A stretch of 64,000 nucleotides of DNA, taken from assembly GCF_988242995.1 (NCBI RefSeq), contig NZ_OZ547043.1; one strand, written 5' to 3'. The notes beneath the pieces are model-generated. The model searched no databases and was not told the DNA's origin. It was given only the letters and a program-made list of their open reading frames with translations. The translations under genes and the position numbers were made by a program. Positions 2,587 through 6,230 of the stretch are shown here, piece by piece; the first letter of the stretch is position 1; each line of letters opens with the position of its first letter.

Positions 2587-4065
2587 ATGTCGAAAAAATA
2601 CATCATAGGGATTGATGGTGGAAGTCAGAGCACAAAAGTGGTGATGTACGATCTGGAAGGTAATGTGGTTTGCGAAGGCAAAGGCTTATTGCAGCCGATG
2701 CACACGCCAGATGCCGATACCGCAGAACATCCTGACGACGATTTATGGGCATCATTATGCTTTGCCGGTCACGATTTGATGAGTCAGTTTGCCGGAAATA
2801 AAGAAGATATTGTCGGTATTGGTCTGGGATCCATCCGTTGCTGCCGTGCGTTATTGAAAGCCGATGGCACGCCAGCTGCGCCGTTGATTAGCTGGCAGGA
2901 TGCACGCGTTACACGCCCTTACGAACATACGAATCCTGACGTGGCATATGTCACCTCTTTTTCAGGTTATCTGACGCATCGCTTAACCGGCGAGTTTAAA
3001 GACAATATCGCCAACTATTTTGGTCAGTGGCCGGTGGATTATAAGACCTGGGCATGGAGTGAAGATGCCGCAGTCATGGAGAAGTTTAATATCCCCCGTC
3101 ATATGCTGTTTGATGTGCAAATGCCGGGCACTGTTCTTGGGCATATCACTCCTCAAGCCGCGCTGGCGACACATTTCCCGGCTGGGCTGCCGGTTGTTTG
3201 TACCACCAGTGATAAACCGGTTGAAGCACTGGGAGCTGGGTTACTGGATGATGAAACGGCGGTAATTTCTCTTGGCACTTACATCGCGCTGATGATGAAC
3301 GGCAAAGCACTGCCGAAAGATCCGCTGGCGTACTGGCCGATTATGTCTTCTATTCCGCAAACATTGCTGTATGAAGGTTACGGTATCCGCAAAGGCATGT
3401 GGACGGTGAGCTGGCTACGCGACATGCTAGGCGAGTCGTTAATTCAGGATGCCAAAGCACAGGATCTTTCACCGGAAGATTTACTCAACAAAAAAGCGTC
3501 TTGTGTGCCGCCAGGCTGTAATGGTCTGATGACGGTGCTGGACTGGCTGACCAATCCGTGGGAACCGTACAAACGCGGGATTATGATCGGCTTTGATTCC
3601 AGCATGGATTACGCATGGATATATCGTTCGATACTGGAAAGCGTGGCGCTGACGCTGAAGAACAATTTCGACAATATGTGTAATGAAATGAATCACTTTG
3701 CAAAGCATGTGATCATTACTGGCGGCGGTTCGAACAGCGATCTGTTTATGCAGATTTTTGCCGACGTGTTCAACCTTCCGGCACGCCGTAACGCCATTAA
3801 TGGTTGTGCAAGCCTGGGGGCAGCGATTAATACGGCGGTAGGTCTGGGGCTATACCCGGATTACGCAACGGCTGTCGACAAAATGGTTCGCGTGAAAGAT
3901 ATCTTTATGCCTGTTGAGAACAATGCCAAACGCTACGACGCGATGAATAAAGGCATTTTCAAGGAGTTAACCAAACATACTGATGTAATCCTGAAAAAAT
4001 CGTATGAAGTGATGCATGGGGAATTGGGGAATGCGGATTCGATCCAGAGCTGGTCGAATGCGTAA
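2587..4065 (+). CDS. ygcE: FGGY-family carbohydrate kinase
   Basis: 492-aa ORF; N-terminal IGIDGGSQSTK sugar-kinase fold motif; RBS aggaga 7 nt upstream. Confidence 0.85.
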   Translation: MSKKYIIGIDGGSQSTKVVMYDLEGNVVCEGKGLLQPMHTPDADTAEHPDDDLWASLCFAGHDLMSQFAGNKEDIVGIGLGSIRCCRALLKADGTPAAPLISWQDARVTRPYEHTNPDVAYVTSFSGYLTHRLTGEFKDNIANYFGQWPVDYKTWAWSEDAAVMEKFNIPRHMLFDVQMPGTVLGHITPQAALATHFPAGLPVVCTTSDKPVEALGAGLLDDETAVISLGTYIALMMNGKALPKDPLAYWPIMSSIPQTLLYEGYGIRKGMWTVSWLRDMLGESLIQDAKAQDLSPEDLLNKKASCVPPGCNGLMTVLDWLTNPWEPYKRGIMIGFDSSMDYAWIYRSILESVALTLKNNFDNMCNEMNHFAKHVIITGGGSNSDLFMQIFADVFNLPARRNAINGCASLGAAINTAVGLGLYPDYATAVDKMVRVKDIFMPVENNAKRYDAMNKGIFKELTKHTDVILKKSYEVMHGELGNADSIQSWSNA

Positions 4066-4111
4066 GTGAGGAAGACCGGGCGGGAAACTGCCCGGCCTGA
4101 ACATACCTGAA

Positions 4112-4249
4112 TGGTTATCCCCGCTGGCGCGGGGAACATAAGTTCGACAACTTAAAAAATGATAACAAGTCCGGTTTATCCCCGCTGATGCAGGGAACAT
4201 AATAAAAACTTTAACTAGTTCGGTTTATCCCTGTTTTTACAAGGAATAT
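4112..4249 (-). CRISPR. Degenerate short CRISPR locus: three decayed type I-E-like repeats
   Basis: Repeat-like units at 4112-4139, 4172-4200 and 4221-4249 resemble cggtttatccccgctggcgcggggaactc with increasing divergence; first spacing about 32 bp, second only 20 bp. Confidence 0.6.
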
Positions 4250-4700
4250 TAACTACACTCGATGTATTTAGAATAAAAGACAATACGAATCGCACTTTAT
4301 CAATTTTCACTTAAAGTATGAACTGGATATCTTTATTCATAAGAACTATTCATCAACAGCGTATAGAGGCGATTATGTAAAACCACTCATTAGCCTCAAA
4401 ACAAAGACAAATTTCCAGATTTATTACTTAATCAATGAATAACAAGCTTAAAAAATACACTGTTATTCTAAAGAAAAAATTAACAGGCATTAATTAATAT
4501 TAAAAAAATAATATGTTAAAATTTCTTAACGGTTTAAGGATTATACAAATAACACTTTGATTAAATTTTATTTTTTGTATCGATAATTGTGAACTTGTCA
4601 TATATGGAGAGCTATTTTGAACATGAGGTGTTACGTGGATATGTTGCTTAATACGAGTACTGCTAATATAAAAACTTGAGAAAGAGATAACGGGTTATAT
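4250..4700 (-). promoter_or_regulatory. AT-rich tract between the two CRISPR loci; positionally the leader of the degenerate array
   Basis: Strongly AT-rich non-coding stretch on the same side of the repeats as the leader of the main array. Confidence 0.35.
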
Positions 4701-4702
4701 GG

Positions 4703-5219
4703 TGGTTTATTCCCGCTGGTGCGGGGAACTCATCAGTGATATCCAACATTGCGGAGCTAAACGCGGTTTATCCCCGCTGGCGCGGGGAACTCAATTAGCC
4801 CGCCTCGCGCGGGTTTTTTTGTGCCGGTTTATCCCCGCTGGCGCGGGGAACTCTTTACTTATCTGCAAATATTTTTTGTCAGCTGCGGTTTATCCCCGCT
4901 GGCGCGGGGAACTCACGAACGCGGCACACCAGGGCGTCTCATCGTCCGGTTTATCCCCGCTGGCGCGGGGAACTCGAACACGACAGGAGTGATAAATGTA
5001 CGCACATCGGTTTATCCCCGCTGGCGCGGGGAACTCGGCTGATAGTGCTTCTGATTATTCGGCGCAAGCGGTTTATCCCCGCTGGCGCGGGGAACTCTAG
5101 GACCCAATATAAAACCGACTGGTTATTTTCGGTTTATCCCCGCTGGCGCGGGGAACTCTTTCAGTCTGGAACACAACGGCGTTAAATAACCGGTTTATCC
5201 CCGCTGGCGCGGGGAACTC
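4703..5219 (-). CRISPR. Type I-E CRISPR array, 9 repeats of 29 bp and 8 spacers of 32 bp; terminal repeat at 4703-4731 is degenerate
   Basis: Repeats start at 4703, 4764, 4825, 4886, 4947, 5008, 5069, 5130, 5191 with an exact 61-bp period; minus-strand repeat is GAGTTCCCCGCGCCAGCGGGGATAAACCG, the canonical E. coli I-E repeat. Confidence 0.95.
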
Positions 5220-5420
5220 ACTAAACATAACCTATTATTAATTATTGATTTTTTAAGTCAGTCACAATCTACCAACTTAACAGAAACACACAAACAACAC
5301 ATCCATTATGTTAAAGAGCACTTAATTCATTGATTGAAAAGCCAAATATTTAAAGTAATTCTATACCGACTAAAATCCACCAAACTCCGACGTAATAATT
5401 TTCACTCCAACGAAAAATTA
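5220..5420 (-). promoter_or_regulatory. CRISPR leader (AT-rich, adjacent to the newest repeat)
   Basis: AT-rich sequence abutting the intact repeat at 5191-5219, opposite the degenerate end; typical leader position. Extent is approximate. Confidence 0.55.
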
Positions 5421-5558
5421 ACGCCACAGAATTTGTAGATAATGACAATGATTAGTCCGGAATGGGCAAAATGGATGAGTTTTCAGAGGCGACAAAAAAT
5501 ATAAATGAGTGGAAGTCTTTACAGGTTCCACCCATTTATAACGCTTATAAATGTTTAA

Positions 5559-6230
5559 TCAGGCAATATTTAAATATTTATGTGTTTGCATCGACAAACG
5601 CCAGTTGCGCGCAATGCACGTATCGATACATAAACGAGTAGCATCTTCCTTTTGGCTAATCGGCTGCAGCGCAATGACTCGCGGTTTATCATCGGTCAGT
5701 GTTGCCAGTAGTTCATCCAGTGCTTCAATATCACGCACGCGTCCCACTGGATGCTTGATTTCGTTGGCTCGCTCCAGTGCCTGTGACAACACTTCATAGC
5801 CGCCGCGCATGTTCAGCTTTGGCGATACGGTAACCCAGGTATTCGGTGTGCAGCGTACTTCATGAGTACCACTGGTTTCGATCTGGCAGCTAAAACCGTT
5901 CTTTTCGAGCAGGTCAGTCAGTGGCAGCAAATCATGAATGCAAGGCTCACCACCCGTAATCACCACATGCCGCGCGGTGTATCCCTGGCGACCAATGACA
6001 GCCAGCAAGTCTTCACTGCTCGCCGCCCCCCACTTATCACTCTCTTTGGTCTTCGCCAGAATGCTGAAAAGGGAGACTTCCCGATCCTCAAGCTTTTCCC
6101 AGGTGTGTTTGGTGTCGCACCAGGCACAGCCAACCGGGCATCCCTGTAAACGAATAAAAATGGCGGGGACGCCGGTAAAGTAACCCTCACCTTGCAGGGT
6201 CTGGAACATCTCGTTAATCGGGTACTGCAT
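5559..6230 (-). CDS. queE: 7-carboxy-7-deazaguanine synthase (radical SAM, queuosine biosynthesis)
   Basis: 223-aa ORF with CxxxCxxC-type cluster motif region (LQGCPVGCAWCDTKH). Confidence 0.9.
   Translation of the reverse strand: MQYPINEMFQTLQGEGYFTGVPAIFIRLQGCPVGCAWCDTKHTWEKLEDREVSLFSILAKTKESDKWGAASSEDLLAVIGRQGYTARHVVITGGEPCIHDLLPLTDLLEKNGFSCQIETSGTHEVRCTPNTWVTVSPKLNMRGGYEVLSQALERANEIKHPVGRVRDIEALDELLATLTDDKPRVIALQPISQKEDATRLCIDTCIARNWRLSMQTHKYLNIA

What the first reader, a model, noticed from the sequence alone, without database searches (positions are those of the whole stretch)
4112..4700. Second, decayed CRISPR locus with its own AT-rich leader-like region
Three repeat-like units at 4112-4249 become progressively more divergent from the I-E consensus (the last is cggtttatccctgtttttacaaggaatat) and one spacing is only 20 bp. 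The 450-bp AT-rich tract at 4250-4700 sits where a leader would be. Two adjacent arrays in different states of decay record array birth and death at one locus.
Basis: partly seen in the sequence, partly recalled or inferred. Interest (0 to 1): 0.35.

Follow-up and report, generated by a model that had tools for sequence, protein, structure and literature searches.

The report
Known mini CRISPR array, frozen not decaying
This is the already described three-repeat "CRISPR2.2" mini-array of E. coli and the AT-rich, H-NS-bound DNA that separates it from the main array; it is not a separate array with its own leader, and the degenerate repeats are fixed and unusually conserved across the species rather than still decaying.

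Summary
Three type I-E repeat-derived units lie at 4112-4139, 4172-4200 and 4221-4249, with 4, 5 and 11 differences from consensus. Their spacings are 32 and 20 nt, and a 453-nt tract of 17-33% GC follows.

This is the published CRISPR2.2 mini-array of the E. coli CRISPR-II (ygcE-queE) locus. The tract is the known 0.5-kb AT-rich sequence that splits it from CRISPR2.3. In K-12 it is catalogued as an H-NS-bound, nearly silent "promoter island".

The "own leader" reading holds only for position:
- The tract shows no homology to I-E leaders in tests with working positive controls.
- The two spacers never vary.
- Unit 1 is the ancestral terminal repeat of a single array, as seen in E. albertii, E. 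whittamii and tract-less E. coli.

The "ongoing decay" reading fails. In about 4,100 genomes the degenerate units are fixed. A 240-nt core (4128-4367) varies far less than synonymous sites, queE or the working CRISPR2.3 leader. Substitutions in units 2 and 3 spare the RNA hairpin and the Cas6e cleavage site and 5' handle.

It is a frozen, apparently constrained relic. What the constraint serves (fixed crRNAs or a DNA element) is untested.

The parts
4073..4098 (.). GC-rich hairpin shared by the convergent genes ygcE and queE. It is the ancestral intergenic terminator-like element. A - strand transcript through the mini-array would end here.
   Evidence: It forms in the centroid fold of the - strand RNA. 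The same hairpin lies between queE and ygcE in Citrobacter and in the Escherichia outgroups.
4112..4139 (-). U1: a 28-nt repeat, transcribed form ATGTTCCCCGCGCCAGCGGGGAT-AACCA. It is the homologue of the terminal (leader-distal) repeat of the single CRISPR-II array in other Escherichia.
   Evidence: The same 1-nt deletion and the flank TTCAGGTATGTTCAGG occur in L002, L003, L007, L008 and L098-L100. Its only variable sites among 12 strains are 4127 (loop) and 4113 (post-cleavage tail).
4140..4171 (-). Spacer 1: 32 nt, GACTTGTTATCATTTTTTAAGTTGTCGAACTT. It is invariant across the species.
   Evidence: It is 100% identical in 4048 of 4062 genomes, with no second site. No credible protospacer was found in phages, plasmids or the window.
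4172..4200 (-). U2: a 29-nt repeat with 5 differences from consensus. The stem is kept through a U-G wobble, and the last 16 nt are intact.
   Evidence: There were 0 variable sites among 12 strains.
4201..4220 (-). Spacer 2: 20 nt, AACTAGTTAAAGTTTTTATT. It weakly resembles the first 20 nt of spacer 1.
   Evidence: The in-register identity is 12/20, shuffle p = 0.02. There were 0 variable sites.
4221..4249 (-). U3: a 29-nt repeat with 11 differences (ten G/C to A/T, plus one A to T). All 7 stem pairs are kept in - strand RNA, through 2 compensatory changes and 1 wobble. The last 11 nt, GGGATAAACCG, are intact.
   Evidence: Simulation of random decay: P(stem kept) = 0.06, P(last 11 nt intact) = 9e-4, both = 5e-5. 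There were 0 variable sites.
4128..4367 (.). Conserved core (diversity valley). It spans the 3' half of U1, both spacers, U2, U3 and the first 118 nt of the tract.
   Evidence: Only 1 variable site (4266, private to the window's lineage) among 12 diverse strains. Pi is 0.003 or less, against 0.03-0.10 in both flanks and 0.066 at ygcE third codon positions. Fisher p = 1e-5 to 1e-13. Population-wide identity bands agree.
4294..4322 (-). Candidate extended -10 promoter, TTCATA-17-(TGa)TAAAGT, pointing at U3. The -10 ends 45 nt upstream of U3. This is a prediction only.
   Evidence: Relaxed consensus scan. It lies inside the invariant core. No TSS was reported here in the one K-12 map I could query.
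4250..4702 (.). AT-rich tract of 453 nt that separates CRISPR2.2 from CRISPR2.3. It is single-copy and specific to E. coli.
   Evidence: GC is 17-33%. It is present in 4128 of 5426 complete E. coli genomes, always at this locus. It is absent from every non-E. coli locus fetched and has no plasmid or phage homologue. It has no terminal inverted repeats.
4338..4683 (.). Equivalent of the K-12 'promoter island' ygcE/queE (U00096.2 coordinates 2901670-2902016).
   Evidence: PMC3661553, Table 1 and supplement: listed as H-NS-bound in all ChIP studies, and, as reported for promoter islands as a class, RNA polymerase-bound with very low transcription. I mapped the coordinates through L087.
4441..4640 (.). 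Middle part of the tract, which varies at about the neutral rate.
   Evidence: 34 of 200 sites vary, plus indels, and pi = 0.074. It is 90-95% identical to the window in 3487 of 4158 genomes.
4703..5219 (-). CRISPR2.3, the main array of 9 repeats and 8 spacers. Its degenerate terminal repeat is at 4703-4731.
   Evidence: RefSeq annotates it as 'CRISPR' in near-identical strains.
5220..5558 (-). The true leader of CRISPR2.3, with conserved I-E leader motifs in 5221-5279.
   Evidence: The foreign-leader profile hits 5279-5221 at E = 7e-4. Junction-anchored alignments give z = 2.9-5.8. A class I reverse-strand TSS in K-12 maps 171 nt upstream of the first repeat.

Best explanation
The feature is the CRISPR2.2 mini-array of the E. 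coli CRISPR-II locus, plus the 0.45-kb AT-rich DNA that splits it from CRISPR2.3.

Shown:
- CRISPR-II is an Escherichia insertion between the convergent genes queE and ygcE.
- In E. albertii, E. whittamii and tract-less E. coli it is one array that ends in the U1-type terminal repeat.
- In 76% of E. coli genomes a block made of spacer 1, U2, spacer 2, U3 and the AT-rich tract sits between that terminal repeat and the rest of the array.
- The tract is not an I-E leader by homology.
- The mini-array never gains or loses spacers, apart from occasional repeat-mediated or IS1 deletions.
- The degenerate repeats are fixed species-wide, and a 240-nt core (4128-4367) is under much stronger constraint than neutral sites, queE or the active leader.

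From the literature: the tract is an H-NS-bound 'promoter island' with almost no transcriptional output in K-12.

Inferred:
- The block entered an ancestral E. coli array by recombination at repeats.
- Adaptation at U3 is dead, because the leader-repeat junction and the first three repeat bases are changed.
- The core is kept by purifying selection. My best guess, at roughly 30%, is that it still yields Cas6e-processable fixed crRNA-like RNAs from the - strand. The three canonical hairpins, the intact cleavage site and 5' handle in U2 and U3, and the terminator hairpin after U1 fit this.
- Otherwise the core acts as a DNA or RNA structural element between convergent transcription units.
For: Identity:
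- Flanking genes ygcE and queE, and RefSeq 'CRISPR' annotation.

Ancestry:
- queE and ygcE are about 45 bp apart with no CRISPR in many genera.
- U1 homologues end single arrays in outgroups and in tract-less E. coli.
- The tract is absent outside E. coli and single-copy in 4128 of 5426 genomes.

Not a leader: with working positive controls.

H-NS-bound promoter island.

Constraint:
- 0 variable sites from spacer 1 to U3, and 1 in 240 nt, against 16-21% at ygcE third codon positions, 17% in the mid-tract and 10% in the proximal 118 nt of the true leader.
- The same pattern holds in about 4,100 genomes.

crRNA-compatible pattern:
- Canonical hairpins form only in - strand RNA.
- The substitution pattern is non-random.
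- The three hairpins and the terminator all appear in the centroid fold, z = -4.3.
- The variable sites in U1 fall only in the loop and the post-cleavage tail.
Against: - Polarity rests on parsimony with only two Escherichia outgroup species. Repeat-mediated loss of the tract is easy: strain 115 lost spacer 1 plus U2, and L098 has a hybrid repeat. The outgroups could therefore have lost the tract.
- One character I first used to argue that the single array is ancestral (the loop T in U1) turned out to be uninformative.
- There is no direct evidence that the mini-array is transcribed. The K-12 TSS map I could query reports no start in this interval, although it does detect the CRISPR2.3 leader and queE starts. 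Promoter islands are reported as nearly silent.
- No target was found for either spacer.
- Hairpin retention alone is only p of about 0.06-0.13.
- The 12 strains were partly chosen for divergence in the tract, which inflates mid-tract diversity. It does not inflate the gene or leader controls.
Confidence: 0.75

Rival explanations
1. CRISPR2.2 is an independent second array that arose with its own leader (the tract). It later stopped adapting, and both array and leader are decaying neutrally towards AT-rich sequence.
For: - The tract is on the correct (leader) side of U3 given the repeat orientation.
- U1, U2 and U3 share an 'AT' start that CRISPR2.3 repeats lack, as if copied from one another.
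- By eye, the tract has AAATTGATAAAGTG at -57, where real leaders have AAGTTGGTAGATTGTG at -59, differing by G-to-A changes like those in U3 (sequences).
- The U3 substitutions are almost all G/C to A/T.
Against: - There is no significant similarity to any of 8 real leaders by local, junction-anchored or profile tests, while the controls succeed.
- U1 is the terminal repeat of the single array in outgroups.
- The literature assigns no leader here.
- The region is not decaying now: it has 0-1 variable sites where neutral sites show 16-21%.
- Degeneracy increases towards the supposed leader, the reverse of normal arrays.
Confidence: 0.12
2. The conserved core is a DNA-level or transcription-insulating element and has no CRISPR function. 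Three tandem hairpins plus the terminator and the adjacent H-NS-coated AT-rich DNA would stop read-through between the convergent ygcE and CRISPR2.3/queE units, or would anchor an H-NS filament. Selection would act on that role.
For: - The tract is an H-NS-bound promoter island with very low output.
- The unit lies between convergent transcription units.
- There is strong predicted structure.
- No spacer target was found.
- No TSS was detected inside it.
Against: - A terminator or insulator role does not require nucleotide-level invariance of both spacers, or of the 8-nt handle sequence.
- The part of the tract catalogued as the H-NS-bound island (about 4338-4683) is largely the variable part, not the invariant core.
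- The wobble and compensatory changes keep the hairpins only in - strand RNA.
Confidence: 0.3
3. The low diversity is not selection. A single 240-bp haplotype spread recently through E. coli by gene conversion or hitch-hiking, or the segment simply has a low mutation rate.
For: - E. coli recombines in short tracts.
- Diversity comparisons across 12 strains are not phylogenetically independent tests.
Against: - Both immediate flanks (4066-4127 and 4368-4640) carry old, phylogenetically structured haplotypes at neutral levels.
- The valley holds in about 4,100 genomes of all tract-bearing lineages.
- Spread of one short haplotype species-wide would itself imply selection.
- Rare variants occur only at low frequency.
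Confidence: 0.1

Closest known systems
CRISPR2.2 of the E. coli CRISPR-II (ygcE-ygcF/queE) locus (Diez-Villasenor et al. 2010, as cited in PMC4489801, PMC3903273, PMC3737337 and PMC10910852)
   Same: Same locus, same flanking genes, three repeats, two invariable spacers, and about 0.5 kb of AT-rich DNA between it and CRISPR2.3. This is that element, in a strain whose CRISPR2.3 has 9 repeats.
   Different: Nothing structural differs. Three points shown here are not in the papers I could read: U1 is the ancestral terminal repeat; the core is more conserved than neutral sites and than the active leader; and the substitutions spare the hairpin and handle. I could not read the original 2010 paper, so it may already cover some of this.
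Type I-E CRISPR leader (E. coli leader2.1 and leader2.3 and enterobacterial homologues)
   Same: AT-rich and placed immediately upstream of the first repeat in the direction of transcription.
   Different: It lacks the conserved leader motifs (the GTTGGTAG box near -55 and the TTTAGA junction), fails the profile and alignment tests, and has never supported a spacer gain in about 4,100 genomes.
Promoter islands / H-NS-silenced xenogeneic AT-rich DNA (Panyukov and Ozoline 2013, PMC3661553)
   Same: The K-12 orthologue of 4338-4683 is one of the 78 catalogued islands, listed as H-NS-bound; the islands as a class bind RNA polymerase and are almost silent. It is lineage-specific DNA.
   Different: It sits inside a CRISPR array rather than beside acquired protein genes. 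Its array-proximal 118 nt lies mostly outside the catalogued island and is invariant.
Degenerate terminal repeats of CRISPR arrays
   Same: U1 and the repeat at 4703-4731 are typical leader-distal degenerate repeats.
   Different: U2 and especially U3 are degenerate at the end facing the AT-rich tract, and their changes preserve structure.
Conserved orphan CRISPR-like RNAs with non-immune roles, such as Listeria RliB-CRISPR (from memory, not checked here)
   Same: A short array with fixed content, far from cas genes and conserved across a species.
   Different: No transcript, processing or phenotype has been shown for CRISPR2.2.

Membership tests
Type I-E CRISPR array | Two or more direct repeats homologous to the I-E repeat consensus | tested here: met
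   U1, U2 and U3 have 4, 5 and 11 differences from consensus. U3 is 18/29 identical, against a maximum of 12/29 elsewhere in the tract.
Type I-E CRISPR array | Regular 61-nt period (29-nt repeat plus 32-nt spacer) | tested here: inconclusive
   U1 to U2 is 61 nt. U2 to U3 is 49 nt because the spacer is 20 nt.
Type I-E CRISPR array | Repeat RNA forms the 7-bp stem with 4-nt loop, followed by the 8-nt handle AUAAACCG | tested here: met
   All three units fold canonically as - strand RNA. The handle is intact in U2 and U3 and altered in U1, where it is not needed.
Type I-E CRISPR array | Spacer content varies between strains, as evidence of acquisition | tested here: not met
   Spacer 1 is identical in 4048 of 4062 genomes. 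Spacer 1 to U3 is at least 99% identical in 3965 of 4157. Only deletions were seen.
Type I-E CRISPR array | Spacers match mobile elements | tested here: not met
   There were no matches above chance in 50,697 phage and 72,556 plasmid records or in E. coli genomes. Spacer 2 was searched only in the window, because it is too short for BLAST.
Type I-E CRISPR array | Processed by Cas6e and loaded into Cascade | not testable with these tools
   Needs RNA and protein experiments.
Type I-E CRISPR leader | AT-rich sequence directly upstream of the first repeat in the transcribed orientation | tested here: met
   The tract 4250-4702 has 17-33% GC and lies on the leader side of U3.
Type I-E CRISPR leader | Conserved leader sequence motifs in the repeat-proximal 60-70 nt | tested here: not met
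   Junction-anchored alignments give z = -1.0 to 1.6, against 2.9-5.8 for real leaders. The profile finds the true leader at E = 7e-4 and nothing next to U3.
Type I-E CRISPR leader | IHF site at the proper distance from the repeat | tested here: inconclusive
   The only exact WATCAANNNNTTR match in the tract is at 4550-4562, about 300 nt from U3. A consensus scan is weak evidence either way.
Type I-E CRISPR leader | Contains the promoter of the array | tested here: inconclusive
   There is a candidate extended -10 promoter at 4322-4294. The higher-scoring site at 4593-4565 has a polymorphic -10. No TSS was reported in a K-12 map.
Type I-E CRISPR leader | Directs integration of new spacers at the leader-repeat junction | tested here: not met
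   No expansion was seen in about 4,100 genomes. The first three bases of U3 and the junction differ from functional ones. A direct assay was not possible.
Promoter island / H-NS-silenced acquired DNA | Listed in the K-12 catalogue as a dense cluster of promoter-like sites bound by RNA polymerase and H-NS with low output | tested here: met
   Met by literature look-up and coordinate mapping. PMC3661553, Table 1 and supplement, give 2901670-2902016 (U00096.2), which maps to window positions of about 4338-4683, with H-NS binding in all studies. My simple scan found 7 promoter-like sites in 4000-5600, against 4.3 expected.
Promoter island / H-NS-silenced acquired DNA | Lineage-specific, AT-rich relative to the genome | tested here: met
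   It is absent from all 80 non-E. coli queE loci and present in 76% of E. coli. GC is 17-33%.

The most novel reading that the evidence does not exclude
CRISPR2.2 is not a fossil. It is a selectively maintained, adaptation-dead unit with two fixed guides. The 240-nt core would supply a promoter (or use read-through), three Cas6e-competent hairpins, and two fixed crRNAs with 32-nt and 20-nt guides. E. coli would keep these for a non-immune or very old conserved target, which would make it a domesticated crRNA locus.
Probability: 0.25. Interest if true: 0.65.

Novelty: already known. Interest (0 to 1): 0.3.

Why it matters
As an object, this is textbook E. coli CRISPR anatomy, so the finding as written adds nothing new. 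The useful outcome is a correction and a lead.

The correction: the mini-array is not a second array dying next to the first. It is the old end of one array, cut off by E. coli-specific AT-rich DNA.

The lead: its degenerate repeats have been frozen since before the species diversified, and they are more tightly conserved than the working leader next door. If that constraint reflects fixed crRNAs, it bears on a long-standing question. That question is why the E. coli I-E system, silent and slow to adapt in nature, is retained at all. The idea can be tested directly with a Northern blot and a Cascade pull-down.

Tried and rejected
- Rfam scan of 3500-6000 gave only two sub-threshold chance hits.
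- Local alignment of the whole tract to leader2.3 and to K-12 leader2.1 was not above shuffles, but that test had a weak positive control. I replaced it with junction-anchored and profile tests.
- Source of the tract: no plasmid or phage homologue. The three 'plasmid' hits are mislabelled 4.8-4.9 Mb chromosomes. There is no paralogue in E. coli and no terminal inverted repeats or transposon signature.
- Protospacers: nothing above chance for spacer 1. The single viral contigs exact hit (L093) is the same chromosomal locus.
- Small ORFs in the core: a 20-aa + strand ORF (4318-4380) has non-synonymous polymorphism. The - strand ORFs that start at the ATG of U1 or U2 lack a ribosome-binding site and run antisense into ygcE. 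All rejected.
- The best-scoring promoter-like site (4593-4565) has three alleles inside its -10.
- I argued that the loop T in the U1 homologue of L003 proves the single array is ancestral, then withdrew it: K-12-type U1 has the same T.
- The idea that spacer 2 and U3 are a diverged duplicate of spacer 1 and U2 is only weakly supported (12/20, p = 0.02; controls reach 10/20).
- The L009-type arrangement with no CRISPR is absent from complete E. coli genomes.
- TSS evidence: one paper's supplement held nothing useful. The other shows no start in the interval.
- The original descriptions (Diez-Villasenor 2010; Pougach 2010) are not held.

Full report
**What is in the sequence.**
The window begins in the E. 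coli ygcW-yqcE-ygcE region. ygcE runs 2587-4065 on the + strand and queE runs 6230-5559 on the - strand. Near-identical RefSeq genomes annotate the same genes and a 'CRISPR' feature between them.

Nine repeats at 4703-5219 match the reverse complement of the type I-E repeat with 0-3 mismatches. No such match is expected by chance. The array is therefore transcribed from the - strand, and its leader is at 5220 onward, next to queE.

Three further repeat-derived units lie at 4112-4139, 4172-4200 and 4221-4249. They have 4, 5 and 11 differences from consensus and are separated by 32 and 20 nt. U3 is 18/29 identical to consensus, while no other 29-mer in the neighbouring tract exceeds 12/29. A 453-nt stretch of 17-33% GC lies between U3 and the main array.

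**It is a known element.**
The literature names the arrays between ygcE and ygcF/queE as CRISPR2.2 and CRISPR2.3.
- The two arrays are 'separated by 0.5 kb', some strains have a single 'CRISPR2.2-3' array, and leaders are described only next to CRISPR2.1 and CRISPR2.3 (PMC3903273 and PMC3737337).
- The K-12 orthologue of window positions of about 4338-4683 is one of 78 catalogued 'promoter islands'. These are dense clusters of promoter-like sites that bind RNA polymerase, give almost no transcript, and are covered by H-NS. This one is scored as H-NS-bound in all ChIP studies (PMC3661553, Table 1 and supplement).

**Is the tract a leader?**
Position and AT content fit. Homology does not.
- A first local-alignment test was negative but had a weak positive control.
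- I then anchored alignments at the leader-repeat junction. The proximal 60 nt of seven real I-E leaders align with E. coli leader2.3 at z = 2.9-5.8. These were K-12 CRISPR2.1, Klebsiella spallanzanii, Pseudocitrobacter, two Phytobacter, Pluralibacter and an unnamed enterobacterium. The 60 nt next to U3 aligns with none of the eight real leaders, leader2.3 included (z = -1.0 to 1.6).
- A profile built only from the seven foreign leaders finds the true leader at 5279-5221 as its top hit (E = 7e-4). It finds nothing at the U3-proximal tract, even when scoring is forced.
- By eye there is a faint resemblance: AAATTGATAAAGTG at -57 against AAGTTGGTAGATTGTG at -59. It does not reach significance.

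**Evolutionary history.**
A scan of species-representative genomes with QueE returned 80 loci.
- In many genera queE and ygcE are convergent neighbours about 45 bp apart. They share one GC-rich hairpin and have no CRISPR between them.
- E. whittamii has leader2.3 followed by one repeat, GAGTTCCCCGCGTCAGCGGGGAT-AACCA, then TTCAGGTATGTTCAGG and the hairpin. E. albertii has the leader and three repeats, the last of the same kind.
- That repeat, with its 1-nt deletion and its flank, is U1.
- E. coli strains without the tract have the same layout.
- No non-E. coli locus has any homologue of the tract. Within E. coli it is single-copy, always at this locus, and present in 4128 of 5426 complete genomes. 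It has no plasmid or phage relative and no transposon-like ends.

The simplest reading is that U1 is the old terminal repeat of one array, and that spacer 1, U2, spacer 2, U3 and the tract entered as a block in an E. coli ancestor, probably by recombination at repeats. This polarity rests on parsimony with two outgroup species. Repeat-mediated deletions clearly occur: strain 115 lacks spacer 1 plus U2, L098 has a hybrid single repeat, and IS1 truncations exist. Loss in the outgroups therefore cannot be excluded.

**Not decaying but frozen.**
I aligned 12 tract-bearing strains chosen across the identity range, including K-12, O157:H7 and this window's lineage.
- From 4128 to 4367 (240 nt) only one site varies, and it is private to the window's lineage. 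Spacer 1, U2, spacer 2 and U3 have no variable site.
- In the same strains the variable fractions are: 16% at ygcE third codon positions (pi = 0.066), 13% at queE third positions, 17% in the 46 nt between ygcE and U1, 17% in the mid-tract 4441-4640, and 10% in the proximal 118 nt of the functional leader2.3.
- Fisher tests give p from 1e-5 to 1e-13.
- Population-wide identity bands agree. Positions 4140-4265 are at least 99% identical to the window in 3965 of 4157 genomes. Positions 4140-4440 sit near 98.7%. Positions 4441-4700 are at 90-95% in 3487 of 4158. Spacer 1 is identical in 4048 of 4062.
- No genome has intact repeats at U2 or U3.
- Rare variants exist at low frequency and hit stem, handle and loop positions.

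Both flanks carry old, structured haplotypes. A recent sweep of only this 240 bp is unlikely without selection.

**What the constraint might protect.**
- As - strand RNA, U1, U2 and U3 each fold into the canonical 7-bp stem with 4-nt loop. As + strand RNA, U2 and U3 do not.
- U3 keeps all seven pairs through two compensatory changes and one wobble. None of its 11 substitutions falls in the last 11 nt, GGGATAAACCG, which hold the Cas6e cleavage site and the 8-nt 5' handle. Under random decay the chance of keeping the stem is 0.06, the last 11 nt 9e-4, and both 5e-5.
- The two variable sites in U1 are in the loop and in the tail beyond the cleavage site.
- A - strand RNA from 4290 to 4066 is predicted to form the three hairpins and the terminal hairpin (z = -4.3).
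- A candidate extended -10 promoter (4322-4294) lies wholly in the invariant core.

These features are what a unit that still makes two fixed crRNAs would need. From memory, not checked here: a 20-nt guide is 32 minus 12, in phase with the 6-nt periodicity of shortened-spacer Cascade complexes.

Against this reading:
- No target was found for the spacers.
- The one K-12 start-site map I could query (U00096.2 coordinates) reports reverse-strand starts in the CRISPR2.3 leader and before queE, but none in the mini-array or tract.
- Promoter islands are reported as nearly silent.

I therefore hold the crRNA reading at about 25-30%. The alternative is a structural or insulating DNA/RNA element between convergent units.

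**Verdict.**
The feature is real and already known. It is wrong on two points: the tract is not a leader homologue, and the array is not in progressive decay. The modest new lead is the strength and the pattern of conservation in the core.

Noticed in passing
window 4793-4824: One CRISPR2.3 spacer (aattagcccgcctcgcgcgggtttttttgtgc on the + strand) is itself a terminator-like GC hairpin followed by a T run. It was probably captured from the end of a gene in a mobile element.
   Followed up: no
L101-L105, L107 (positions 4173-4257): Some E. coli genomes encode the identical QueE, followed after 85 bp by a LacI-family regulator, a glycoside hydrolase family 32 enzyme and a PTS gene (a sucrose-type locus). 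They have no ygcE and no CRISPR-II at all. This third arrangement probably accounts for many of the roughly 890 genomes with no match.
   Followed up: partly
L002 (AH04), L089 (RM9245), L096 (WS3294A): One lineage has a large deletion that joins queD to a truncated ygcE (ygcN to yqcE are lost). Within this arrangement both the split array (RM9245, WS3294A) and a single array (AH04) occur, which shows recent gain or loss of the tract block by recombination.
   Followed up: partly
L008 7071-7099 (E. albertii): The middle repeat of the E. albertii array has an aberrant G-rich 5' end (GGGGGGCCCCGCGTTAGC...) and a 60-nt period. All its repeats carry GCGTTAGC in the loop region.
   Followed up: no
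window 4580-4588: TCGATAATT lies in an invariant stretch inside the otherwise variable mid-tract. It closely resembles the high-affinity H-NS nucleation motif tCGATAAATT (motif recalled from memory).
   Followed up: no
L004 (ES9) and L112 (MSB1_1D): IS1 insertions have removed ygcE and part or all of CRISPR2.2. In MSB1_1D only U3 and the tract remain. In ES9 only about the last 25 nt of the tract remain.
   Followed up: partly
K-12 L087 about 3579, equivalent to window about 5390: A class I reverse-strand transcription start in K-12 (U00096.2 coordinate 2902602, Romero et al. 2014 supplement) maps 171 nt upstream of the first CRISPR2.3 repeat, further out than the conserved proximal leader motifs.
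   Followed up: partly
L009 6665-6815: A genome labelled E. coli (SCPM-O-B-8794), which is a species-level representative in the genome collection, has a different 145-bp queE-ygcE spacer with no CRISPR. That spacer occurs in none of 5,426 complete E. coli genomes, so the strain probably belongs to a cryptic Escherichia lineage.
   Followed up: partly
window 4703-4731 versus L099/L100/L106 4511-4539: This strain's CRISPR2.3 terminal repeat carries GCACCAGC. The leader-proximal repeat of the two-repeat single arrays carries the same change. K-12's terminal repeat does not.
   Followed up: no
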